This document shows positions 3,189 through 12,553 of a stretch of 64,000 bases of DNA, in pieces. The translations under genes and the position numbers were made by a program. Source of the DNA: a bacterium (GTDB lineage: Bacteria > Patescibacteriota > Minisyncoccia > Phycocordibacterales > Zambryskibacteraceae). Position 1 is the first letter of the stretch; each line of letters begins with the position of its first letter. The stretch is taken from the NCBI GenBank assembly GCA_030649135.1, contig JAUSGI010000008.1:128001-192000 (forward strand). The letters are read 5' to 3'. The notes under the pieces are model-generated. The model searched no databases. It was not told the origin of the DNA and saw only the letters and a program-made list of their open reading frames with translations.

Positions 3189-5396
3189 GTGATGCGTTTA
3201 CTTATAGTAGAGTCGCCGTCGAAAGCCAAGACTATCGAGAAATATCTTGGTAAAGATTTTCGCGTGGTCGCGTCCGTCGGGCATATTCGCGACCTTCCCA
3301 AATCAAATAAGGCGGCTATTGATGTACCGGGTGGCTTCATACCGCACTACGAAGTGGTGAAGGGAAAAGAAAGAGTGATTTCGGAAATTAAGTCATTGTC
3401 CAAAAAAGCCGACGAAGTCTTGCTCGCGACCGACCCAGACCGCGAAGGTGAGGCTATTGCTTGGCATGTCGAGCAGGCGGTTGGATTGAAGTCTCCGAAA
3501 CGTATTGTCTTCTATGAGATAACCAAAGAAGCCGTAGAAGAAGCGCTCGAACATCCCCGAGAAATTGACACCAACCTTCGGGAAGCACAGGAAGCAAGGA
3601 GGGTTTTGGACCGTTTGGTCGGCTATGACCTTTCCGGACTAATCTGGAAAAAGGTGCGTTACGGTCTGTCCGCCGGCAGAGTGCAATCCCCCGCTCTGCG
3701 CATCGTAATGGAGCGCGAGCGCGAAATACGCGCCTTTCTACCGGTCACTTTCTGGACTATTACTGCCAATCTCGAAGATAAATCTAAAAATAATCTGGTT
3801 TTCGTCTGTTCCCAAGAACCAAATAAAAAAGAGGATGTAGAAAATATCATTAATTCTGCCAAGGTCTCCCCTTGGCAAGTTACGGACATCAAGGAAACCA
3901 AAGTGGCGCGCGCTCCGCGCGCGCCCTTCATCACCTCGACCTTGCAACAGACAGCAAGTTCTCGCCTTGGCATGGCACCCTCTCGCTCTATGTACTTTGC
4001 CCAGAGACTTTACGAAGCCGGACACATTACTTATATGCGTACCGACTCCACCAATCTTGGTGGTGCGGCGCGCAAAGAAATAGAGGAGGTGGTGAAGAAA
4101 AAATACGGAGCGAATTATTTTGAATCGCACGTCTTTGCGAAAAAATCTAAAAACGCACAAGAAGCTCACGAAGCCATTCGGCCAACGCACATGAATGTAG
4201 AAACGGCTGGGGCGACAGATGGGGAGAAAAAACTTTACCAACTAATCTGGCAGAGAACCATCTCAAGCCAAATGAAACCGGCGGAAGTCATGCGGACCAA
4301 AGTCGTGGCCAACACAGAGGTTAAACCTCTGGGATTGGAGTCCGGAGGTTTAACCTCTGGGGAAATGCCGGACTTCTGGCTCAATGGCTCGCGCATTATC
4401 TTTGACGGCTGGCTTAAGGCCGACCCACGCTCGGCTAGTGAGGATATTATCTTGCCGAAAATCTTGACAGGCGACCCGCTCAAGCTCTTGAATATAAGCT
4501 CGGAAGAAAAGCTAACCGAACCGCCCGCTCGATATTCCGAAGCAGGATTAATTAAAGAACTTGAAAAACGCGGCATCGGCCGACCGTCGACCTATGCTTC
4601 CATTATCAAGACACTTGACGACCGTGGCTATGTGGAAAAAAGGGCTAAAGCCCTTTTCCCCACCGACACAGGTGAAGTGGTCAGCTCATTTCTCGAAGAG
4701 CATTTCCCTACCTATATCAGTGATTCCTTCACTGCGGAAATGGAGGACGAGCTGGACGACATCGCCAACGGTACGCGCACATATAAGAAAACTCTGGCTG
4801 ATTTTTATACGCCATTTTCAAAAGAAGTAAAAGAGCGAGATAAAGTCGCCAAAATCACTAACCTAGGCAAAGCGCCAGCGGACTTGAAGTGCCCCGTCTG
4901 CGGAGCTAACATGATTATCAAGCTCGGCAAGAGCGGTAAGTTCTTGTCCTGCGAGAAGTACCCGGAATGCCAAGGGGCACGCACCATGGAAGGCAAGGAG
5001 CTTGAAGGGCCTAAAGATACCGGAGAAATATGCCCTAAGTGCGGCAAGGGTAATCTGGTCACTCGGGAAGGCAAGTTCGGCATGTTCACGGCTTGTTCGC
5101 GTTTCCCCAAGTGCAAGTTTGTCAAAAAAGATGAGGAGCAAGAGAAAGCAAACTCCACCGGTGTAAAATGTCCCGTATGTAAAACTGGTTTTCTGTCGGA
5201 ACGGCGCGGCCGCTTCGGAATATTCTACAGCTGCTCAAACTATCCCGACTGTAAGTATGCCATCAATGCTAAGCCTACCGGTGAGACCTGCAAACTCTGT
5301 GGTAGTTTGATGATGGAAGGTACGAAAACTATTCCGGAGAGATGTTCAGATAAAAAATGTCCCAATCACAACCCACACAAAATCAATCAGACCTAG
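3189..5396 (+). CDS. topA: DNA topoisomerase I with C-terminal zinc-ribbon repeats
   Basis: Toprim and topoisomerase IA motifs (LLIVESPSKAKTI, APFITSTLQQ, YITYMRTDS) and four CxxC...CxxC zinc ribbons at the C-terminus. Confidence 0.93.
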   Translation: MMRLLIVESPSKAKTIEKYLGKDFRVVASVGHIRDLPKSNKAAIDVPGGFIPHYEVVKGKERVISEIKSLSKKADEVLLATDPDREGEAIAWHVEQAVGLKSPKRIVFYEITKEAVEEALEHPREIDTNLREAQEARRVLDRLVGYDLSGLIWKKVRYGLSAGRVQSPALRIVMEREREIRAFLPVTFWTITANLEDKSKNNLVFVCSQEPNKKEDVENIINSAKVSPWQVTDIKETKVARAPRAPFITSTLQQTASSRLGMAPSRSMYFAQRLYEAGHITYMRTDSTNLGGAARKEIEEVVKKKYGANYFESHVFAKKSKNAQEAHEAIRPTHMNVETAGATDGEKKLYQLIWQRTISSQMKPAEVMRTKVVANTEVKPLGLESGGLTSGEMPDFWLNGSRIIFDGWLKADPRSASEDIILPKILTGDPLKLLNISSEEKLTEPPARYSEAGLIKELEKRGIGRPSTYASIIKTLDDRGYVEKRAKALFPTDTGEVVSSFLEEHFPTYISDSFTAEMEDELDDIANGTRTYKKTLADFYTPFSKEVKERDKVAKITNLGKAPADLKCPVCGANMIIKLGKSGKFLSCEKYPECQGARTMEGKELEGPKDTGEICPKCGKGNLVTREGKFGMFTACSRFPKCKFVKKDEEQEKANSTGVKCPVCKTGFLSERRGRFGIFYSCSNYPDCKYAINAKPTGETCKLCGSLMMEGTKTIPERCSDKKCPNHNPHKINQT

Positions 5397-6901
5397 ACCC
5401 ACTCGCCAACATTATAAGGAGCATGGTCAACCCTTTGCCGGAAGACGTTGTCACCGTCAAGAAGGCCTTTACCTTCGCTCTCCGCGCTCACCAAGGGCAC
5501 GAGAGACTATCCGGGGAACCTTATTTAAAACATCTGTCCGAAACGGCACTGATACTGGCAGAGCTGGGCGCGGGAGGGCCAACGATTGCAGCTGGATTAC
5601 TTCACGATACGATAGAAGATGTTGGGGTTAAAAGAGAGGAAATTGTATCTGAATTTGGAGAAGAAGTCGCTTTCTTGGTTGACGGTGTTACCAAGCTCGG
5701 ACATCTTAAATATAAAGGTGTTAACCGACACAACGAGAGCTTGCGTAAATTATTCGTAGCCATGTCGGAAGATATCAGAGTGCTTCTCATCAAGCTCGCG
5801 GACCGCCTACATAATATGAGAACGCTCTCTCATGTGCCGAAAGAAAAACAAAAAAGGATAGCGGCGGAGACACTCGAAATCTACGCCCCCATCGCCTACC
5901 GACTGGGTATCAGAAAGATTAATCGCGAGCTTGAAGACTTATCCTTCCCTTACGTATATCCCAAGGAATACGAAGAGATGCGAAAAATGCTCAAAGAACG
6001 ACACTCGGATAGAGTAGAGAGTTTAGAAAAATTTTCACACTCTGTTCAGAAGGCGCTGGCCAAAGAAGGTTTAACCAAAGCCAAGACAGAGTATCGGGTA
6101 AAGGGACTCTATAGTCTATACAAAAAATATCTTAGATATGATAAAGACCTGGAAAAGATCTATGACGTGAGCGCCATGCGTATCCTAGTGGACTCTATAG
6201 CAGATTGTTATCGAGTGCTGGGAGTGATACATGGACGCTGGAGACCTTTACCGCGTCGTATCAAAGATTACATCGCTTTCCCCAAACCGAATGGCTATCA
6301 GGCCCTACATACAACTATCTTCATTGGAGACGGCAATATTGTGGAAGTCCAGATTAAAACTCACGAGATGTATCGGTATTCCGAATACGGTATCGCTTCC
6401 CACCTTTACTATAAAGAAAACGGTCGCAATAAAAATGTCTTGGCCTGGGTCTATGCCCTTTTGCCAAAATCTAAAAAAGCAAACGGCACAGGTACTGTTA
6501 AAAGTAAGGATGTGCCCAAATGGATATCGGAGTTGGCCACATATGAAGAGCCCTCCCAAAATCAACGGCTCTTCCGAGAAAGGCTCACAAGCGACTTTTT
6601 CAGCCAAAGAATATTTGTTTTCTCCCCGAAGGGCGACGTGGTGGACTTGCCTATTGACTCAACCCCCATCGACTTTGCCTATTCGATACATTCCGACATC
6701 GGAGACCGCATGACGGGCAGCAAAGTGAATGGCAAGTTGGTCTCACTTGACACCAAGCTTCACAATGGAGATATAGTTTTCATCATGACTAGCGAATCGG
6801 CTAAACCTAATCGCAAATGGCTTGAGATGACCAAAACCTCAATGGCTCGCCGCCATATCCGACATCAACTTGGGAAACTTAGGAAACCTGACCGCGCTTA
6901 G
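5357..6901 (+). CDS. bifunctional (p)ppGpp synthetase/hydrolase, RelA/SpoT family, without an ACT domain
   Basis: HD motif LLHDTIEDVG, a RelA_SpoT synthetase block (KDYIAFPKPNGYQALHTTI) and a TGS domain. It overlaps topA by 40 nt, and the start could instead be the ATG at 5423. Confidence 0.85.
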   Translation: MSQSQPTQNQSDLDPLANIIRSMVNPLPEDVVTVKKAFTFALRAHQGHERLSGEPYLKHLSETALILAELGAGGPTIAAGLLHDTIEDVGVKREEIVSEFGEEVAFLVDGVTKLGHLKYKGVNRHNESLRKLFVAMSEDIRVLLIKLADRLHNMRTLSHVPKEKQKRIAAETLEIYAPIAYRLGIRKINRELEDLSFPYVYPKEYEEMRKMLKERHSDRVESLEKFSHSVQKALAKEGLTKAKTEYRVKGLYSLYKKYLRYDKDLEKIYDVSAMRILVDSIADCYRVLGVIHGRWRPLPRRIKDYIAFPKPNGYQALHTTIFIGDGNIVEVQIKTHEMYRYSEYGIASHLYYKENGRNKNVLAWVYALLPKSKKANGTGTVKSKDVPKWISELATYEEPSQNQRLFRERLTSDFFSQRIFVFSPKGDVVDLPIDSTPIDFAYSIHSDIGDRMTGSKVNGKLVSLDTKLHNGDIVFIMTSESAKPNRKWLEMTKTSMARRHIRHQLGKLRKPDRA

Positions 6902-7860
6902 ATACTGAAATTGGCGACAGAATAGAGAGACTCGTCGTCTTCGGATTTTACTGGCTCGTCCTCTGCGAGAATTTTGTCCTCCTCTGTCAGAGCTGGAACG
7001 TCTGCTATAGACATGTTTACTTCATGTGAGTTTTTAAATTCTTTATCCACAATAATTCTTTCAAGTAGAGCTCGTAGGTCATCTTTATTGAAAAAGTCTA
7101 TCGTCACTCGCCCGCCTTCTTCCTTCTTTTCTATTCTCACTCGAGTACCCAATTTCTCTTTAAACAAGCCCTCGATATCTATAAGTTCTTGGTCGATCAA
7201 CTTGCGGGCACGCTCGACCGCAATGTGACGTGCGATACCTTCCGCCTCCCTGACGTTGAGTTTTTTGAAAATAATTTCTTTGAAAAGCGTTTCTTGCTCC
7301 TGTGGCCTGTCGGTAAGCATCATGAGTGGCCGGGTATGGCCCTCGCTAATCTTATTTTCCGATAGAGCGTTAATAATATATTCCGGCAAAGAAAGAATGC
7401 GCAGAGAGTTTGAGACAAACTCACGACTCTTCCCTACTTTCTTGCCGATCTCGTGATGCTTGAACTTAAATTCTTTCGACAGGCGGTCGAAAGCGCGGGC
7501 ACGGTCAACGGGACTAAGGTCCTCGCGCTGAATGTTTTCGATGATAGCGAGCTCAAGTTTCATTAGGTCAGTTTCCTCACCATCGCGAATGAGTACTGGT
7601 ACTTGCGCGAGGCCAGCTAGGCGAGCGGCGCGGAGGCGCCGCTCGCCGGCCACCAATTCATATTCCACACCAATCCCCCCCTCCTCCTTTTCCACTTCTT
7701 TACGCGTCACCACAAGAGCCTGAAGCACGCCATATTGGCGGATGGAATCCGCCAAACTCTTGAGCTGAACTTCATCGAAGTCACGGCGGGGCTGGTATGG
7801 GTTCGGCTTAATTTTATCCACCTCTATCCAGAAAATAGAGTCGTTATAGAATCGGGACAT
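6898..7860 (-). CDS. parB: ParB/Spo0J-family partition protein
   Basis: ParB box GERRLRAARLAGL plus a helix-turn-helix, with an acidic C-terminal tail. Confidence 0.85.
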   Translation of the reverse strand: MSRFYNDSIFWIEVDKIKPNPYQPRRDFDEVQLKSLADSIRQYGVLQALVVTRKEVEKEEGGIGVEYELVAGERRLRAARLAGLAQVPVLIRDGEETDLMKLELAIIENIQREDLSPVDRARAFDRLSKEFKFKHHEIGKKVGKSREFVSNSLRILSLPEYIINALSENKISEGHTRPLMMLTDRPQEQETLFKEIIFKKLNVREAEGIARHIAVERARKLIDQELIDIEGLFKEKLGTRVRIEKKEEGGRVTIDFFNKDDLRALLERIIVDKEFKNSHEVNMSIADVPALTEEDKILAEDEPVKSEDDESLYSVANFSI

Positions 7861-7903
7861 GCAAATATTATATCAAATGTTTTTATGCTATTCTATGGTA
7901 GAC

Positions 7904-7986
7904 GCTGGAGTGATGGAATGGCAGACATGCAGCACTCAAAATGCTGTGGGCGCAAGCCCGTGTGGGTTCAAGTCCCACCTCCAGCA
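7904..7986 (+). tRNA. tRNA-Leu (anticodon CAA)
   Basis: Hand-folded. Acceptor GCTGGAG/CTCCAGC, anticodon stem CAGCA/TGCTG, anticodon loop CTCAAAA, a long variable arm (TGGGCGCAAGCCCGT) and T-arm GTGGG-TTCAAGT-CCCAC. CCA is not encoded. Confidence 0.85.
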
Positions 7987-7987
7987 C

Positions 7988-8566
7988 ATGCTAAATCTTA
8001 CCGATAAAACTTTGGTGGCATATGTTATTGGTATCGCTCTTGGCGATGGAAATCTTTCTAATCCGAATGGACGTGCAGTTAGATTAAGAATAACCTGTGA
8101 CTCTAAATATCCCTTTTTGATTTCTAAGATTGAACAGTCATTAAAGAAATTGGCCCCTAAAAATAAAGTCTCTCGAATCAATAGAGGAGATAATGCCATA
8201 GATGTCAGCTGCTATTCAAATCAATGGGAGCAATTACTCGGTTGGAAGGCCTACGGTGGCTCAAAAATAAGACAATCGGTTCGCATACCTAGTTGGATAT
8301 TTAGAAATAAAAAACTTTGTCAGGCTTGTTTGTGCGGACTATGGGAGACCGATGGTTCGGTTTACAAAGACAGAAAATATATAACAGCAAATTTTGTGAC
8401 TCAGATTCCAAGCCTCGCACAAGGTGTGGCGAAGATGATTCTTAAAACCCGCTACAAGGCTTCTATACAAAAATTGGTCTTATCTGATAACAGAGAAAAA
8501 TTTACTTTCAGAATTCATAGAAATGCTTCTCAGTTTATTAAAGAAATGTCTATAGAGAAAAGGTGA
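7988..8566 (+). CDS. LAGLIDADG homing endonuclease (double-motif, monomeric type)
   Basis: Two LAGLIDADG motifs, VIGIALGDGNL and LCGLWETDGSV. The ATG at 7988 sits 1 nt after the tRNA-Leu discriminator. The upstream part of the track ORF (7859..7987) overlaps the tRNA and is rejected. Confidence 0.75.
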   Translation: MLNLTDKTLVAYVIGIALGDGNLSNPNGRAVRLRITCDSKYPFLISKIEQSLKKLAPKNKVSRINRGDNAIDVSCYSNQWEQLLGWKAYGGSKIRQSVRIPSWIFRNKKLCQACLCGLWETDGSVYKDRKYITANFVTQIPSLAQGVAKMILKTRYKASIQKLVLSDNREKFTFRIHRNASQFIKEMSIEKR

Positions 8567-8617
8567 TACAGCAAGCGTCCATCATAGAATGTGGATTCTC
8601 TCTCCCGGCACCCATAA

Positions 8618-8643
8618 TTGACTTCCTATCAGTGTGATATAAA
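8618..8643 (+). promoter_or_regulatory. promoter-like TTGACT ... TGaTATAAA (short spacer, extended -10)
   Basis: Read by eye. The spacer is only about 14 nt, so this is weak. Confidence 0.3.
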
Positions 8644-8704
8644 ATTCGTGTTAAACAGTACAAACGCGACTTATCAGATAGAACCAAGGGAGGAGGTGAA
8701 GGAC

Positions 8705-9094
8705 ATGACACCAGGCGATAAACTGCAGTTATGCCAGCAGGTTGGGGAGTGCCTCCGAAACTCTCCGGTAAAAGATTCTCTCACGAAGCGCTGGGAGAAT
8801 CAGCTCTTCGCGAGGCATCTAGAGTATCCGGAGCGAAGTCCCCAAATCTGCACGACGGTGCAGTTGGAAATCGGACCTACAACCGGCTGGTTTACACTTG
8901 AGCAGACGGGTGGTGGTTTCTTGGCGCACATCTGGGCGCCAGGCGCCCGAGAGTCCAAGGAGGTCGAGAAGGAGGCACGCGATCTCGGTGACCATCTGTT
9001 GTCGGTCCTTCCTGCCTCATGCGTTCGAGTCCGTTTTGCCAAACCGCACGAGTTCCTCTCTCGTAAAGGGTGGTCAATCCACAACGGCAACTAG
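8705..9094 (+). CDS. hypothetical protein (GC-rich, 129 aa)
   Basis: Strong RBS GGGAGGAGGTG at 8688-8698 before the ATG at 8705, in frame with track ORF 8618..9094. GC content is higher than in flanking genes. Confidence 0.5.
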   Translation: MTPGDKLQLCQQVGECLRNSPVKDSLTKRWENQLFARHLEYPERSPQICTTVQLEIGPTTGWFTLEQTGGGFLAHIWAPGARESKEVEKEARDLGDHLLSVLPASCVRVRFAKPHEFLSRKGWSIHNGN

Positions 9095-9115
9095 GTATAG
9101 ACGGGCAATCATCCC

Positions 9116-9158
9116 GGGCCTCTCCGACACCGCTGTCGGAGAGGCCCTCTTCTTTTTT
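9116..9158 (+). terminator. rho-independent terminator
   Basis: GGGCCTCTCCGACA-ccgc-TGTCGGAGAGGCCC followed by TCTTCTTTTTT. Confidence 0.75.
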
Positions 9159-9198
9159 AAATTTATTTTCATAAATGGTTAGTTTTTACTGCATGTGC

Positions 9199-9228
9199 TT
9201 GACTTTTAGCATATATCTATTGTATAAT
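9199..9228 (+). promoter_or_regulatory. sigma70-like promoter: TTGACT, 18 nt spacer, TATAAT
   Basis: Canonical hexamers by eye. The RBS AAGGAGGG lies at 9265-9272 before the ATG at 9274. Confidence 0.6.
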
Positions 9229-9273
9229 CTAAGCAGAAAATAAAACGATCTTAGCCCAGGGCCCAAGGAGGGC

Positions 9274-9729
9274 ATGATGCACAAGTCACTAGTTTTCGCA
9301 TGGATATGTGTGATCTGTTGGTCATTCCTTCCGAATATTTTGGAACGGAAGCTGGATGGTTTCCACCCTGCGTCGATCCTCGTCCTCGTCTACTCCGTGA
9401 TGCTCTCGCTCGCCTTTGTACGACTGGGACACGTAAAGTACATGGGAGAGCCGGTGCACTTCCCGACGGGCATCTTCCTTACCATCGCTGTCGGTACTGC
9501 CTTCCTCTGGTTTGTGGGTGACTACTCGTATACCAGCGCATTCTTGAGCCAGGGTAGCCTGGTCGCGATCATGACTATTTTGGCTTTATCACCCATCGGT
9601 GCAACCCTCGTGAAGATGGTTTGGGCAGGGGAGCTCCCGAACCGTTATCACATCGTGGCGTATGTGGCAGTCCTCATAGCAATCTACTTCACGGCGAAAG
9701 GTAATACCATCGCCAACTCAGTCCCCTGA
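9274..9729 (+). CDS. hypothetical integral membrane protein (4-5 predicted TM helices)
   Basis: Hydrophobic profile, with its own promoter and RBS. GC-rich. Confidence 0.55.
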   Translation: MMHKSLVFAWICVICWSFLPNILERKLDGFHPASILVLVYSVMLSLAFVRLGHVKYMGEPVHFPTGIFLTIAVGTAFLWFVGDYSYTSAFLSQGSLVAIMTILALSPIGATLVKMVWAGELPNRYHIVAYVAVLIAIYFTAKGNTIANSVP

Positions 9730-9841
9730 AATAGACATTGCGAGTTCAAGCCTCGCATGGGAAAGCTCAACACAGCTTACCGTGCGGGGCTTTCTTATTT
9801 TCATAACATACTCTGTATATTTGCAATGTATAATAAGATGA

Positions 9842-12553
9842 ATGGAAACCAAGTGGCATACACTAGAGCTTTCGGAAATATTTGAGATATTGAAGTCTAG
9901 TGAGCACGGACTCTCAAGCGTAGAGGCGGATCGGCGGCTTGACGAGAACGGACCGAATAAATTACCGGATTCGAAAGCAGATAGCATCGCGTTTATTTTC
10001 CTGCGCCAATTTCGAAGTCCCTTGATTTATATCCTCCTCGCGGCCGCCCTGACGGTTTTTGTCATGGGGGAAACAGTCAACAGTATCGTTATTATGGCGG
10101 TGCTTATTGTTAATGCAGTTATCGGCTCCATCCAGGAGGGACGGGCCCGCAGTACCATACTTGCCCTGAAGCAATTCGTGGAGACAAAAGCGGTTATTCT
10201 GCGAGACGGCAAAGAAGTGATTGCCCCCGATACGCAAGTAGTAGTCGGGGATATCATCTTACTCCAAGAGGGCGACAGAATAGCCGCCGATGCAAGGTTG
10301 ATAGTCGCCCGGAATCTAAAAATCGACGAATCCTCTTTGACCGGAGAGTCCGAGGCGGTGCACAAGACAAGTGACACTCTGGTCAAGCCAGACTTGGCGA
10401 TGATAGGGGAAAGCAATATGGTCTTCAAAGGCACCCACATTGTCCTGGGCAATGGCAAAGCAGTTGTGGTAAAAACCGGAGTGGAAACAGTCATCGGTAA
10501 AATTGCCAAAGAGGTTCTAACTATCGAGACAGAAATTCCACTTCAGACCAATATCCGTTATCTCTCCAGAATAATTATCGCAATTGCTATTGGCGTCAGC
10601 ACCGCCATCTTTATCCTTGGCAGCTTTTCCGGTCAATCTACACGAGAAATGTTTTCTCTTGTCGTTTCCATGCTCGTCTCCGTCATACCGGAAGACTTGC
10701 CTATTGCCATCACTATAATTTTAGCCGCCGGCGTCTGGAGAATGAGTAAGAGAAATGCTCTGGTCAAGCGCCTGCAGGCGGTCGAGGCGCTTGGAGAAGC
10801 CCGAGTCATCGCGGTAGATAAGACCGGCACTATTACCAAAAACGAGATGATGGTCCAGACTATCTATGTGGATGGTAAAACTTTCGAGGTCGGAGGCATC
10901 GGGTATGAACCTAAGGGAGATATCAAACTGGAAAATCGGATTATAGACCCGCCCAATCATCCGGAACTTTTGCTAGTCGGCAAAATGGCCGCTTTTTGCG
11001 CCAATGCTCGGGTCATGTTTCTGGAAAAGACCAAGGAGTGGAAAATCTCCGGCGATCCGACGGAAGCGGCCATGTTGGTAGTGGCAGAAAAACTTGGATT
11101 TAATAAAGATGATTTGGAACGTGAGTCCCCGCTCATATCGGAAATTCCTTTCGACTATAAATTGAAATATCACGTGACCGTTCACAAAGACAATAACCAA
11201 AACTTTACAACAATCGTGGGGGCGCCGGAAACTATCTTGGGAATCTCGAGCAAAGTCTGGCGTAACGGGCAGGCAGAGCAACTCTTACCGGAGGAGAAAG
11301 ATGAATTGGTATCCATTTTTTCCGGTATTTCGAAGAGGGGGCTTAGAGTTATCGCGCTTGCCTTAAGCCCACAGGTGTCAGAAAATGTTAATCAAACAGA
11401 TATTAAACATCTCACTTTTGTCGGGTTCTTGGGCCTAAAGGATGCCTTACGTCTGGAAGTTAAGGAAGCCACCAAACGCGCGATCTCGGCCGGCATCAGG
11501 GTGGTGATGATTACCGGTGACCACCAAAATACTGCGGAAACCATAGCGAAAGAAGCCGGTATCTACAGGACCGGTGATATCAGTTTGACGGGCGCAGAAA
11601 TTGATAATCTGTCGGATACCATGCTTAAAGAGCGCCTGACCAAAACTTCTGTCTTTGCCAGAGTAACGCCGGAGCACAAGCTCCGCATTATCAATGCCTA
11701 CAAATCGAGAGGAGAGATTGTCGCGATGACGGGTGACGGAGTAAACGACGCGCCGTCTCTAGTGGCGGCAGACCTCGGAGTGGCGATGGGCAGAGTCGGC
11801 ACCGAGGTGGCCAAAGAAGCTTCCGATATCATACTCTTGGACGATAACTTCGGCAGTATCATTTCCGCCATTGAGGAGGGCAGGAGTATTTATAAAACTA
11901 TTAAAAAAGTTGTTCTATATCTATTATCCACCAGTCTCGGAGAGATTTTTGTTATTGCCGGAGCCATCATCGTTGGGCTCCCCCTACCGCTTTTGCCAAC
12001 ACAAATTATCTGGCTGAACTTCGTCACTGACGGATTTTTCACCTTGGCGCTCGCCATGGAACCGAGGGAGGAGGGACTATTGCGCGGCAATTTTGAGAAG
12101 CCGAAAAAATATTTGGTTGATGCCCTCATGGGACGGCGGATGATTGTCATGGCGCTCCCGATGACGATAGCGACGCTCGTGCTGTTTCAAAATTACTTCA
12201 ATACTGACTTGGCAAAAGCCTGGACAATTTCCCTCACCCTCCTGGCAGTATTCCAATGGTTCAATGCTTGGAATTGCCGCTCCGAGAGCGAGTCTATCTT
12301 CCAGACTAACCCCTTTGAAAATAAGTTCATGGTATTTGCCACCTTGGCGGCCTTTTCCTTCCAGTTGCTGGCTGTTTATAATCCCCTGTTCCAAAAATTC
12401 TTACATACTGCGCCGCTTGCGCTTTCCGACTGGTTGGTTATCATTGCCCTTGCTACTTCTATTGTCTTGGTGGAAGAAGTTAGAAAATTTTTATGGCGCA
12501 ACAAAAAGTCCTCGTTATCCTTGGCCCTACCGCTTCAGGCAAGTCAGATTTAG
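9842..12553 (+). CDS. cation-transporting P-type ATPase (P2, Ca2+/Mg2+-type)
   Basis: Phosphorylation motif DKTGTITKNEM, TGDGVNDAPSL, TGES and ten TM segments. Confidence 0.93.
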   Translation: METKWHTLELSEIFEILKSSEHGLSSVEADRRLDENGPNKLPDSKADSIAFIFLRQFRSPLIYILLAAALTVFVMGETVNSIVIMAVLIVNAVIGSIQEGRARSTILALKQFVETKAVILRDGKEVIAPDTQVVVGDIILLQEGDRIAADARLIVARNLKIDESSLTGESEAVHKTSDTLVKPDLAMIGESNMVFKGTHIVLGNGKAVVVKTGVETVIGKIAKEVLTIETEIPLQTNIRYLSRIIIAIAIGVSTAIFILGSFSGQSTREMFSLVVSMLVSVIPEDLPIAITIILAAGVWRMSKRNALVKRLQAVEALGEARVIAVDKTGTITKNEMMVQTIYVDGKTFEVGGIGYEPKGDIKLENRIIDPPNHPELLLVGKMAAFCANARVMFLEKTKEWKISGDPTEAAMLVVAEKLGFNKDDLERESPLISEIPFDYKLKYHVTVHKDNNQNFTTIVGAPETILGISSKVWRNGQAEQLLPEEKDELVSIFSGISKRGLRVIALALSPQVSENVNQTDIKHLTFVGFLGLKDALRLEVKEATKRAISAGIRVVMITGDHQNTAETIAKEAGIYRTGDISLTGAEIDNLSDTMLKERLTKTSVFARVTPEHKLRIINAYKSRGEIVAMTGDGVNDAPSLVAADLGVAMGRVGTEVAKEASDIILLDDNFGSIISAIEEGRSIYKTIKKVVLYLLSTSLGEIFVIAGAIIVGLPLPLLPTQIIWLNFVTDGFFTLALAMEPREEGLLRGNFEKPKKYLVDALMGRRMIVMALPMTIATLVLFQNYFNTDLAKAWTISLTLLAVFQWFNAWNCRSESESIFQTNPFENKFMVFATLAAFSFQLLAVYNPLFQKFLHTAPLALSDWLVIIALATSIVLVEEVRKFLWRNKKSSLSLALPLQASQI

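What the first reader, a model, noticed from the sequence alone, without database searches (positions are those of the whole stretch)
7859..9729. Free-standing LAGLIDADG homing-endonuclease gene 1 nt downstream of an intact tRNA-Leu(CAA), followed by GC-rich cargo with its own promoter and terminator
An intact, intron-less tRNA-Leu(CAA) is followed immediately by a double-motif LAGLIDADG endonuclease gene. LAGLIDADG genes normally sit inside group I introns or inteins, so an intergenic, tRNA-abutting copy is unusual. Downstream lie a 129 aa hypothetical with a very strong RBS (GGGAGGAGGTG), a textbook terminator, a canonical TTGACT/TATAAT promoter and a membrane protein, at visibly higher GC (about 52-55 %) than the flanking 45 % genome. 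This looks like a small element that used the tRNA 3' end as its target, or a remnant of a degenerated intron.
Basis: partly seen in the sequence, partly recalled or inferred. Interest (0 to 1): 0.6.

Follow-up and report, generated by a model that had tools for sequence, protein, structure and literature searches.

The report
Homing endonuclease cassette targeting tRNA-Leu(CAA)
A selfish DNA-cutting enzyme gene has inserted into the tRNA-Leu(CAA) gene of this candidate-phyla-radiation (CPR) bacterium, bringing its own replacement tRNA and leaving an 18-19 base stub of the old one; the same arrangement recurs across these bacteria and I found no paper describing it.

Summary
An intact tRNA-Leu(CAA) lies at 7904-7987. 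Its discriminator base is followed after one base by the ATG of a 192-aa double-motif LAGLIDADG gene (7988-8566).

This is not a one-off and not a decayed intron. Of 75 homologue loci with enough upstream sequence, 71 lie beside a tRNA-Leu(CAA) gene or its remnant. In 62 analysable loci the start codon sits a median 4.5 nt after the tRNA, and none has a Shine-Dalgarno (SD) sequence.

The gene is absent from most syntenic sites. In a sample anchored on the neighbouring parB gene, 39 of 46 evaluable parB/tRNA-Leu sites were empty, including the closest relatives.

Carriers share their own spacer-plus-tRNA haplotype. Endonuclease and host phylogenies disagree.

Window 8594-8611(12) is a perfect copy of the 3' end of the endonuclease-less tRNA allele, starting in the T-loop.

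My reading: this is a free-standing homing endonuclease cassette of the fungal-mitochondrial 'mobile ORF' type. It probably cuts the tRNA gene near the T-loop and spreads by gene conversion.

The 'GC-rich cargo' lies outside the cassette. A second, distantly related LAGLIDADG family occupies the same site in other genomes.

Verdict: a new variant of a known kind.

The parts
7861..7903 (+). parB-tRNA spacer in the endonuclease-linked haplotype. It is co-converted with the cassette and presumably carries the tRNA/endonuclease promoter.
   Evidence: The spacer ends ...TATTCTATGGTAGAC in the window, L001/L092, L002, L084 and L085. Endonuclease-less relatives of equal or closer ParB identity (L081, L082, L083, L088, L089, L093, L094, L098) share a different spacer (...TAGATTTTAACA...GTTGTATA...). 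No promoter passed the consensus scan here, so the promoter role is inferred.
7904..7987 (+). Intact tRNA-Leu(CAA), the endonuclease-linked allele. This is the functional copy brought in with the cassette.
   Evidence: ARAGORN and Rfam at 55.5 bits. The allele is nearly identical in L084, L085 and L092 but clearly different from the alleles of endonuclease-less close relatives; blastn homology to those stops at the parB start.
7988..8566 (+). Free-standing double-motif LAGLIDADG homing endonuclease gene (192 aa). The ATG lies 1 nt after the discriminator base and there is no SD sequence.
   Evidence: Pfam. More than 700 homologues at 49-85% identity. D20 and D122 are invariant at the ends of the two LAGLIDADG helices. 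The fold matches I-DmoI and I-Tsp061I. dN/dS is 0.05-0.09. GC is 36.8%.
8567..8593 (+). 27-nt tail of the cassette between the stop codon and the scar.
   Evidence: Aligns with L085 and L084, the endonuclease-carrying relatives. It is absent from L161 and from the empty sites.
8594..8612 (+). Scar: the 3'-terminal 18-19 nt (T-loop G57 to discriminator plus C) of the displaced native tRNA-Leu(CAA) allele.
   Evidence: GATTCTCTCTCCCGGCAC(C) matches 19/19 the 3' end of the endonuclease-less tRNA alleles of L089, L090 and L131, and 18/18 those of L083, L086, L088 and L093. It is unique in the window, with 0.03 matches expected at up to 3 mismatches. It lines up with the tRNA 3' end of L161, L088 and L089. 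The same scar is in L085 and a decayed one in L084, after which the three genomes diverge.

Best explanation
The segment 7861-8612 is a free-standing LAGLIDADG homing endonuclease cassette specific for the tRNA-Leu(CAA) gene of Patescibacteria (CPR).

Mechanism, with shown and inferred steps marked:
1. Inferred: the enzyme makes a double-strand break in an endonuclease-less tRNA-Leu(CAA) gene, most likely in or near the T-loop. The T-arm is a natural pseudo-palindrome.
2. Shown by comparative anatomy: repair copies the donor's complete tRNA allele and the endonuclease gene into the broken site. Co-conversion reaches leftwards through the spacer to the parB start.
3. Shown: the recipient's own tRNA 3' end, from T-loop position about 57 onwards, is pushed downstream and left as a non-functional scar (8594-8612) that decays with time.
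4. Inferred: the linked tRNA allele differs from the native one and is presumably resistant to cutting.
5. Inferred from spacing: the endonuclease has no promoter or SD sequence of its own. It is transcribed with the tRNA and translated from a start codon 1-20 nt behind the tRNA, probably as a leaderless or near-leaderless mRNA released by tRNA 3' processing.

The element is maintained by recurrent homing and horizontal spread among CPR lineages, not by a host function. orf129 and the EamA-like gene downstream are not part of it.
For: Linkage:
- In 80 genome loci found through the protein, 65 have tRNA-Leu(CAA) on the same strand directly upstream.
- L074 has a degenerate tRNA-Leu copy directly upstream plus an intact one 201 nt away. 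L032 has a degenerate tRNA.
- L015, L047, L052 and L048 have the endonuclease next to the tRNA in other orientations.
- Only L037, L061, L070 and L072 lack any tRNA. That makes 71 of 75 loci with enough upstream sequence.

Presence/absence:
- Of 46 parB-anchored metagenome loci with the divergent tRNA-Leu(CAA) and at least 650 nt downstream, 5 carry this family, 2 carry a second LAGLIDADG family and 39 are empty.
- Empty sites include relatives with ParB 79-86% identical (L083, L088, L089 among the 46) and the closest relative L081 (90%, too short to be counted). Carriers L084 and L085 have ParB 85% identical.

Co-conversion:
- Carriers share a spacer-plus-tRNA haplotype distinct from that of non-carriers of equal relatedness.

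Scar:
- Window 8594-8612 matches the native allele's 3' end 19/19.
- Nine of 76 endonuclease-carrying loci score above the 99th percentile of controls for such a scar within about 75 nt of the stop codon. One of the nine (L035) is probably a separate downstream tRNA, so about eight are true scars, all within about 50 nt.
- In 7 loci the scar begins at T-loop positions 54-58.

Horizontal movement:
- Pairwise endonuclease identity is uncorrelated with ParB identity (Spearman 0.05 over 1891 pairs).
- Examples: L015/L028 have ParB 43% and endonuclease 72%; L084/L002 have ParB 88% and endonuclease 68%.
- dN values regroup L002 with L092 for the endonuclease but with the window for ParB.

Active enzyme:
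- Both catalytic Asp residues are invariant. The LAGLIDADG fold is predicted with high confidence. dN/dS is 0.05-0.09.

Foreign composition:
- The endonuclease gene has 32% third-position GC against 49-60% in neighbouring host genes.

Expression:
- The start codon lies a median 4.5 nt after the discriminator; it is within 6 nt in 40 of 62 loci and within 20 nt in 59 of 62.
- None of the 62 has an SD-like 4-mer. The one locus with a long spacer (L027, 49 nt) contains TTGCTT...TATAAT.

Precedent for the anatomy:
- Mobile endonuclease ORFs in fungal mitochondria carry a foreign 3' end of the host gene and leave the native 3' end downstream (PMC3630166).
Against: - No cleavage assay exists. The target and the cut position are inferred only from where scars begin.
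- The functional tRNA of carriers also has a normal T-arm. In L045 its 3' half nearly equals the scar, so what confers resistance is unknown.
- The D-stem (A-T/T-A against G-C/C-G) and T-stem (CTCTC in 8% against 50%) differences between carrier and non-carrier alleles are confounded by phylogeny and are not absolute.
- Only about 10% of carrier loci still show a scar.
- Nearly all copies are intact and under strong purifying selection, which a purely selfish element achieves only with frequent homing. The search patterns also favoured intact copies.
- Synonymous sites are saturated (dS above 1), so the dN/dS values are rough.
- Co-transcription and leaderless translation are untested.
Confidence: 0.8

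Rival explanations
1. Domesticated LAGLIDADG protein with a host function, for example a WhiA-like DNA-binding regulator near parB/oriC or a tRNA-Leu-specific RNA-binding factor. It would be vertically inherited and co-transcribed with the tRNA.
For: - Strong purifying selection: dN/dS 0.05-0.09, similar to ParB.
- 79 of 80 copies are intact.
- The position behind the tRNA is fixed and there is no separate promoter.
- JGI names many members WhiA.
- A WhiA structure appears among the fold matches, at rank 50.
Against: - Present in only 5 of 46 syntenic sites and absent from the nearest relatives.
- Endonuclease and host identities are uncorrelated.
- Tied to a distinct tRNA/spacer haplotype and followed by a scar of the native tRNA.
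- AT-rich, foreign composition.
- Both catalytic Asp residues are kept and there is no HTH domain. The Pfam WhiA LAGLIDADG-like domain scores 17.1 bits against a cut-off of 23.2.
Confidence: 0.08
2. One composite tRNA-targeting island. The endonuclease plus orf129 plus the EamA-like gene (7988-9729) would have arrived together as cargo at the tRNA 3' end.
For: - All three genes lie between the tRNA and the ATPase gene, which directly follows the tRNA in L088 and L089.
- orf129 and the EamA-like gene have somewhat higher GC.
- orf129 is a rare gene with only 5 homologues.
Against: - Homology with the endonuclease-carrying relatives L084 and L085 ends at the scar (8612), and each genome has different genes beyond it.
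- L161 has the native tRNA 3' end, the same promoter and orf129, then the ATPase, without the EamA-like gene.
- The EamA-like gene is bounded by its own 12-bp direct repeat.
- There is no integrase in the interval.
Confidence: 0.04
3. Remnant of a group I intron (or other intron) that once interrupted the tRNA or a longer RNA gene, with the endonuclease as its surviving ORF.
For: - LAGLIDADG genes are typically intron-borne.
- CPR genomes are rich in group I introns in rRNA and tRNA genes (PMC13011429, PMC11270868).
Against: - No intron family match at E<=10 in 7000-10500.
- The tRNA upstream is complete and self-consistent.
- Known CPR tRNA introns sit in the anticodon loop, and the ones that carry endonuclease genes carry HNH genes, not LAGLIDADG.
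- The ORF fills the whole interval, leaving only 27 nt before the scar.
Confidence: 0.02

Closest known systems
Mobile endonuclease ORFs ('mORFs') of fungal mitochondria: Allomyces macrogynus atp6, and Glomus atp6/atp9/cox2/nad3 (PMC3630166)
   Same: - A free-standing LAGLIDADG (or GIY-YIG) ORF is inserted in the 3' part of a host gene.
- It arrives together with a foreign replacement of that 3' part.
- The native 3' end is left downstream as an unexpressed remnant that still matches close relatives.
- The endonuclease is co-transcribed with the host gene.
- Distribution is patchy and horizontal.
   Different: - The host here is a bacterial chromosome, not an organelle.
- The target is a tRNA gene rather than a protein-coding gene.
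- Conversion here replaced the whole tRNA and the upstream spacer, not only the 3' end.
- The protein is only 17-20% identical to any solved LAGLIDADG enzyme.
Intronless homing by free-standing phage endonucleases: T4 SegB in the tRNA gene region, SegF/SegG, MobE (PMC2790892, PMC2988022; SegB also PMC13096335, from listed abstracts and my own knowledge)
   Same: - The endonuclease gene lies next to its target rather than inside an intron.
- It cuts genomes that lack it.
- It spreads with co-conversion of flanking markers.
- SegB acts in a tRNA gene cluster.
   Different: - Those enzymes are GIY-YIG or HNH and phage-borne.
- No relative of this protein was found in 2.9 million viral contigs.
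- Here a single defined tRNA gene is the site and a target-gene scar is left.
Intron-encoded monomeric LAGLIDADG enzymes I-DmoI and I-Tsp061I (archaeal rRNA introns) and the rRNA-intron LAGLIDADG enzymes of CPR bacteria (PMC11270868)
   Same: - Same fold, a size of about 190 aa, and two motifs with catalytic acidic residues.
- Same host phylum for the CPR rRNA enzymes.
- A highly conserved structural RNA gene is the target.
   Different: - This gene is not inside an intron.
- No sequence-level hit to any PDB LAGLIDADG chain below E=0.02.
- The CPR rRNA study reports mostly single-domain LAGLIDADG_1/_2 proteins, finds LAGLIDADG_3 only in 16S insertions, and its text never mentions tRNA.
WhiA (the name given by some source annotations)
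   Same: Distant LAGLIDADG-type fold (rank 50).
   Different: - No C-terminal HTH domain.
- Catalytic Asp residues are retained.
- The Pfam WhiA domain scores below its threshold.
- Patchy, mobile distribution.

Membership tests
LAGLIDADG homing endonuclease, monomeric double-motif | Two LAGLIDADG helices, each ending in a conserved acidic residue | tested here: met
   D20 (GDGNL) and D122 (ETDGS) are invariant in 35 sequences. They lie at the ends of helices 7-20 and 108-122 of the model.
LAGLIDADG homing endonuclease, monomeric double-motif | Alpha-beta-beta-alpha-beta-beta-alpha fold repeated twice; profile match | tested here: met
   pLDDT 95.5 with the expected element order. Foldseek matches I-Tsp061I and I-DmoI at E about 8e-9, TM 0.63-0.68. 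Pfam LAGLIDADG_3 scores 33 bits against a cut-off of 22.5.
LAGLIDADG homing endonuclease, monomeric double-motif | Site-specific double-strand cleavage of a long (about 20 bp) target with 4-nt 3' overhangs | not testable with these tools
   Needs a biochemical assay. The T-loop target is inferred only from scar junctions.
Free-standing homing endonuclease gene of the mobile-ORF / intronless-homing type | Not embedded in an intron or intein | tested here: met
   No intron family match. The ORF has its own start and stop between a tRNA and a scar.
Free-standing homing endonuclease gene of the mobile-ORF / intronless-homing type | Presence/absence polymorphism at one homologous site among close relatives | tested here: met
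   5 sites with this family, 2 with the second family and 39 empty among 46 syntenic sites. Empty sites occur at ParB 79-86% identity among the 46, plus the uncounted short locus L081 at 90%.
Free-standing homing endonuclease gene of the mobile-ORF / intronless-homing type | Co-conversion of flanking target sequence with the endonuclease gene | tested here: met
   A carrier-specific spacer and tRNA haplotype.
Free-standing homing endonuclease gene of the mobile-ORF / intronless-homing type | Displaced native 3' end of the target gene downstream of the ORF | tested here: met
   Window 8594-8612 matches relatives' alleles 19/19. Nine of 76 loci score above the 99% control level, of which about eight are true scars. 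Also seen in the second family.
Free-standing homing endonuclease gene of the mobile-ORF / intronless-homing type | Element phylogeny discordant with host phylogeny | tested here: met
   Spearman 0.05 over 1891 pairs, with discordant pairs in both directions. dN values regroup the loci. Saturation of the protein comparison is a caveat.
Free-standing homing endonuclease gene of the mobile-ORF / intronless-homing type | The endonuclease-less allele is cut and the linked allele is resistant | not testable with these tools
   Allele differences exist, but none is absolute.
Group I intron-encoded endonuclease | Ribozyme core flanking the ORF and interrupting a host gene | tested here: not met
   Rfam at E<=10 finds only the tRNA, and the tRNA is uninterrupted.
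WhiA | C-terminal HTH domain and a degenerate (inactive) LAGLIDADG core | tested here: not met
   The 192-aa protein has no HTH match. The WhiA LAGLIDADG-like domain scores 17.1 bits against 23.2. The catalytic Asp residues are invariant.
Integrase-mediated tRNA-targeting genomic island | Tyrosine or serine integrase gene within the island | tested here: not met
   No such ORF between 7861 and 9841.

The most novel reading that the evidence does not exclude
Two deep-branching LAGLIDADG families form a CPR-wide gene-drive system on a single tRNA gene. Family 1 has at least 700 cluster representatives at 90% identity and family 2 at least 1,600. The enzymes would cut the T-arm of tRNA-Leu(CAA) genes and overwrite the resident tRNA allele and its promoter with their own. 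They would be expressed without a promoter or SD sequence, as leaderless mRNAs released when the tRNA 3' end is processed. If so, tRNA-Leu(CAA) evolution and the variable gene content next to it in these reduced genomes would be shaped by the element. The families would also offer new compact nucleases with tRNA-gene specificity.
Probability: 0.45. Interest if true: 0.72.

Novelty: new variant of a known kind. Interest (0 to 1): 0.62.

Why it matters
Free-standing LAGLIDADG endonucleases that carry a replacement end of their target gene are known from fungal mitochondria. Intronless homing is known from T-even phages. Here the same strategy operates on a bacterial chromosomal tRNA gene.

The scale is large. 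There are hundreds to thousands of family members across Patescibacteria, and two distantly related families share the site.

- It explains a recurrent mis-annotation: 'WhiA' names, 'hypothetical' names, and N-terminally extended ORFs that read through the tRNA.
- It gives a testable target, the T-arm of tRNA-Leu(CAA), for an uncharacterised branch of LAGLIDADG enzymes.
- It points to tRNA-coupled, SD-less expression.
- It identifies the parB/tRNA-Leu junction as a hotspot of horizontal exchange in genomes otherwise noted for reduction.

I found no description of it in the searched literature. That search covers open-access papers and bioRxiv only.

Tried and rejected
- Group I intron or other structured RNA in 7000-10500: only the tRNA was found.
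- Exact look-up of the window's ParB protein: not on record.
- Relatives in viral contigs: none, so a phage vector is not supported.
- Sequence search of the PDB with the family profile: no LAGLIDADG hit below E=0.02, and the top hits (BamA) are spurious.
- NCBIfam: nothing for the endonuclease, orf129 or the second-family protein.
- Fixed tRNA positions separating carrier from non-carrier alleles: only D-stem pairs 10:25 and 11:24 and the T-stem type differ in frequency. Neither difference is absolute and both are confounded by sampling, so I do not claim an immunity determinant.
- The four loci without any tRNA (L037, L061, L070, L072): no RNA gene at E<=0.5, context unresolved. Three of them come from GC-rich genome bins labelled as non-CPR.
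- L161 as a clean empty site: its contig starts inside the tRNA, so a long scar behind an unseen endonuclease cannot be excluded. It is used only to show that orf129 lies outside the cassette.
- dN/dS: synonymous sites are saturated, so only rough values are given.


Full report
**1. What is in the window**

ARAGORN and Rfam agree on an intact tRNA-Leu(CAA) at 7904-7987 on the + strand. The next base but one after its discriminator A is the A of an ATG (7988). This opens a 192-codon ORF ending at 8566.

The ORF listed from 7859 is the same frame, which happens to stay open through the tRNA. The protein has two LAGLIDADG motifs and passes the Pfam LAGLIDADG_3 threshold. An AlphaFold2 model built on 35 homologues has pLDDT 95.5 and shows the alpha-beta-beta-alpha-beta-beta-alpha unit twice. 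Its closest solved folds are the monomeric archaeal intron enzymes I-Tsp061I and I-DmoI and the endonuclease domain of PI-SceI, at 17-20% identity. No solved structure is found by sequence.

The acidic residues that end each LAGLIDADG helix (D20, D122) are invariant in the family.

No intron or other RNA family is detectable between 7000 and 10500 at E<=10.

- the strong ribosome-binding site and 129-aa ORF;
- the hairpin terminator at 9116-9147;
- the TTGACT/TATAAT promoter at 9199-9228;
- the EamA-like ORF.

The composition contrast is smaller than stated. The window mean is 47% GC. The two 'cargo' genes are 53-56%, with third-position GC only slightly above the neighbours. The true outlier is the endonuclease gene, at 36.8% GC and 32% third-position GC.

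**2. The arrangement is a widespread module**

The protein has more than 700 relatives of about 190 aa at 49-85% identity, and every named source is a Patescibacteria/CPR bin. A scan of one genome per species returned 168 confirmed loci, of which 80 were fetched.

- In 65 of the 80, a tRNA-Leu(CAA) lies directly upstream on the same strand.
- Five loci are cut too short to tell.
- L074 has a degenerate tRNA-Leu copy directly before the endonuclease and an intact one 201 nt away.
- L032 has a degenerate tRNA.
- L047 and L052 have the endonuclease 2-5 nt upstream of the tRNA.
- L015 is convergent with the tRNA 3' end, and L048 is divergent from its 5' end.
- Only four loci (L037, L061, L070, L072) have no tRNA.

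So 71 of 75 informative loci are physically tied to this one tRNA gene, in every possible orientation. That points to a DNA-level relationship with the gene rather than to a transcriptional one only.

In the canonical orientation, the start codon lies a median 4.5 nt after the discriminator. It is within 6 nt in 40 of 62 loci and within 20 nt in 59 of 62. None of the 62 has an SD-like 4-mer.

**3. It is present or absent at a conserved site**

In most loci the tRNA sits in a conserved neighbourhood: relA, then parB on the opposite strand, then tRNA-Leu(CAA). I therefore sampled metagenome contigs through ParB, independently of the endonuclease.

Of 80 loci, 58 have the divergent tRNA-Leu(CAA), and 46 of those have at least 650 nt downstream. 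Among the 46:
- 5 carry this endonuclease;
- 2 carry a different LAGLIDADG gene in the same place;
- 39 carry neither.

The closest relatives of the window are split. L083, L088 and L089 (ParB 86, 82 and 79% identical) are empty, as is the closest relative L081 (90%), whose locus is too short to be among the 46. L084 and L085 (ParB 85%) carry an endonuclease 84-85% identical to the window's.

In L088 and L089 the tRNA is followed within about 25-36 nt by the P-type ATPase gene, which in the window starts at 9842. In L081, L083 and L093 it is followed by miaA.

**4. The endonuclease travels with its own tRNA allele and spacer**

blastn homology between the window and the empty relatives stops at the parB start codon. 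Homology with L084 and L085 runs unbroken from parB through the spacer, tRNA and endonuclease to 8611.

The tRNA of the window, L084, L085 and L092 is one allele. The empty relatives carry clearly different alleles. The 43-nt parB-tRNA spacer likewise comes in two haplotypes that follow endonuclease status, not ParB relatedness.

**5. A scar of the displaced tRNA fixes the right end and the insertion point**

Searching the region behind the endonuclease with all collected tRNA-Leu sequences found a perfect 19-nt match at 8594-8612. The match is to the 3' end of the alleles carried by the empty relatives L089, L090, L131 and others. The 18-mer is unique in the window.

Aligned with L161, L088 and L089, the window sequence joins the native tRNA at T-loop position 57 and then runs colinear with L161 into the orf129 promoter. 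L085 has the same scar and L084 a decayed one. Beyond the scar the three genomes have unrelated sequence.

A position-weight scan found such scars above the 99th percentile of control windows in 9 of 76 endonuclease-carrying loci, within about 75 nt of the stop codon. One of the nine (L035) is probably a separate downstream tRNA, leaving about eight true scars within about 50 nt. In seven loci the scar starts at T-loop positions 54-58. In L030 and L045 the stop codon itself abuts the T-loop remnant.

L066 keeps a longer remnant. The variants L074, L047 and L052 fit a model in which the endonuclease is flanked by two tRNA copies and either one can decay.

**6. Horizontal spread and selection**

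Over 1891 locus pairs, endonuclease identity is essentially uncorrelated with ParB identity (Spearman 0.05). Discordance runs both ways: L015/L028 have ParB 43% and endonuclease 72%, while L084/L002 have ParB 88% and endonuclease 68%.

For ParB, L002 groups with the window (dN 0.10). For the endonuclease, it groups with L092 (dN 0.13, against 0.25 to the window).

dN/dS is 0.05-0.09, like ParB, though synonymous sites are saturated. No relative occurs in the viral contig collection.

**7. Interpretation**

The anatomy is: foreign complete target gene, then endonuclease ORF, then native 3' end left behind and still identical to relatives. This is the anatomy described for mobile endonuclease ORFs in fungal mitochondrial atp6, atp9, cox2 and nad3 (PMC3630166). 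The co-conversion behaviour is that of intronless homing by free-standing phage endonucleases (PMC2790892; T4 SegB from my own knowledge).

I conclude that 7861-8612 is such a cassette. The position where scars begin suggests that the break is made in or next to the T-loop. The T-arm is an inverted repeat and so a natural pseudo-palindromic LAGLIDADG site. This step is inferred, not shown.

Expression by read-through from the tRNA promoter, and translation of a leaderless or very short-leader mRNA after tRNA 3' processing, is inferred from the spacing and the lack of an SD sequence.

What protects the linked tRNA allele is unknown. Carrier alleles are depleted in the GAGAG/CTCTC T-stem (8% against 50%) and in G10-C25/C11-G24 D-stems. 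Neither difference is absolute, and the two samples differ in breadth.

**8. The 'cargo'**

orf129 has only five homologues. In L161 it follows the native tRNA 3' end with the same promoter and precedes the ATPase directly. It therefore lies outside the cassette and is resident in this small clade. L161 starts inside the tRNA, so it cannot be called endonuclease-free with certainty.

The EamA-like gene, with its promoter, is a further 632-bp insertion relative to L161. It is bounded by the direct repeat TTATTTTCATAA at 9163-9174 and 9795-9806.

The interval between the tRNA and the ATPase is thus a variable spot with at least three independent events, not one island.

**9. A second family at the same site**

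L082 and L153 carry a 239-aa LAGLIDADG protein right after the tRNA. It is only distantly related to the first family (hhalign probability 94.6%, 28% identity over 107 columns) and has at least 1620 relatives.

All five further members whose context I fetched (L163-L167) start 3-6 nt after a tRNA-Leu(CAA). They include a Microgenomates genome with unrelated neighbours. Three of them (L164, L165, L166) are followed by tRNA 3' scars.

**10. Literature**

Searches found studies of group I introns in CPR tRNA genes (PMC13011429) and of LAGLIDADG genes in CPR rRNA insertions (PMC11270868). Neither mentions an endonuclease behind tRNA-Leu(CAA). The library covers open-access papers and bioRxiv only.

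**11. Verdict**

- It is a new variant of a known kind of selfish element.
- It has moderate to high interest because of its scale, its single-tRNA specificity and its unusual expression context.

Noticed in passing
L082:4116-4835(-), L153, L163-L167 (ORF at 2001 in each): A second, distantly related LAGLIDADG family (about 235-240 aa, at least 1620 cluster representatives) occupies the same position, 3-6 nt (36 nt in L082) after tRNA-Leu(CAA). One case is a Microgenomates genome with different neighbours. Three of these loci (L164, L165, L166) are also followed by tRNA 3' scars.
   Followed up: partly
window 9163-9806: The EamA-like gene (9274-9729) and its TTGACT/TATAAT promoter form a 632-bp insertion relative to L161. 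It is flanked by the 12-bp direct repeat TTATTTTCATAA (9163-9174 and 9795-9806; 0.02 matches expected by chance). Each junction also has a terminator-like hairpin.
   Followed up: partly
window 8618-9094; L161:1-508: orf129 is a rare gene (5 homologues, no family match, 56% GC) with its own promoter-like site at 8618-8645. In L161 it sits between the native tRNA-Leu 3' end and the ATPase. It is absent from L088 and L089, where the tRNA abuts the ATPase. Its function is unknown.
   Followed up: partly
window 7859-8566; database proteins P0003, P0004, P0006, P0009, P0010 and others: Many database gene calls for this family are 214-235 aa because the caller extended the ORF upstream through the tRNA gene. 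P0079 starts with MRVRVPPLAP, which looks like a translated tRNA 3' end. Several are named 'WhiA' by JGI. Both are annotation artefacts.
   Followed up: partly
L074:3717-4000; L047 and L052 around 4570-4660; L015:4555-4675; L048:1073-1215: Variant architectures occur. L074 has an intact tRNA plus a degenerate second tRNA-Leu copy before the endonuclease. L047 and L052 have the endonuclease immediately upstream of the tRNA. L015 is convergent and L048 divergent. These fit an endonuclease flanked by two tRNA copies, either of which can decay.
   Followed up: partly
L037, L061, L070, L072: Four homologues have no tRNA or other RNA gene nearby. Three come from GC-rich bins labelled proteobacterium or Terriglobales. 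Their target and context are unknown; bin contamination or a shift of target are both possible.
   Followed up: partly
window 5357-7987 and most loci L001-L160: The gene order relA, parB (opposite strand), tRNA-Leu(CAA) is conserved across many Parcubacteria-type genomes. What follows the tRNA (miaA, ATPase or small accessory genes) varies even among close relatives.
   Followed up: partly
tRNA-Leu(CAA) 3' ends in all loci (e.g. window 7983-7987): The base after the discriminator is C in nearly all alleles (GGCA|C), with or without the endonuclease, although a full CCA is encoded in only some. This may bear on 3' processing.
   Followed up: no
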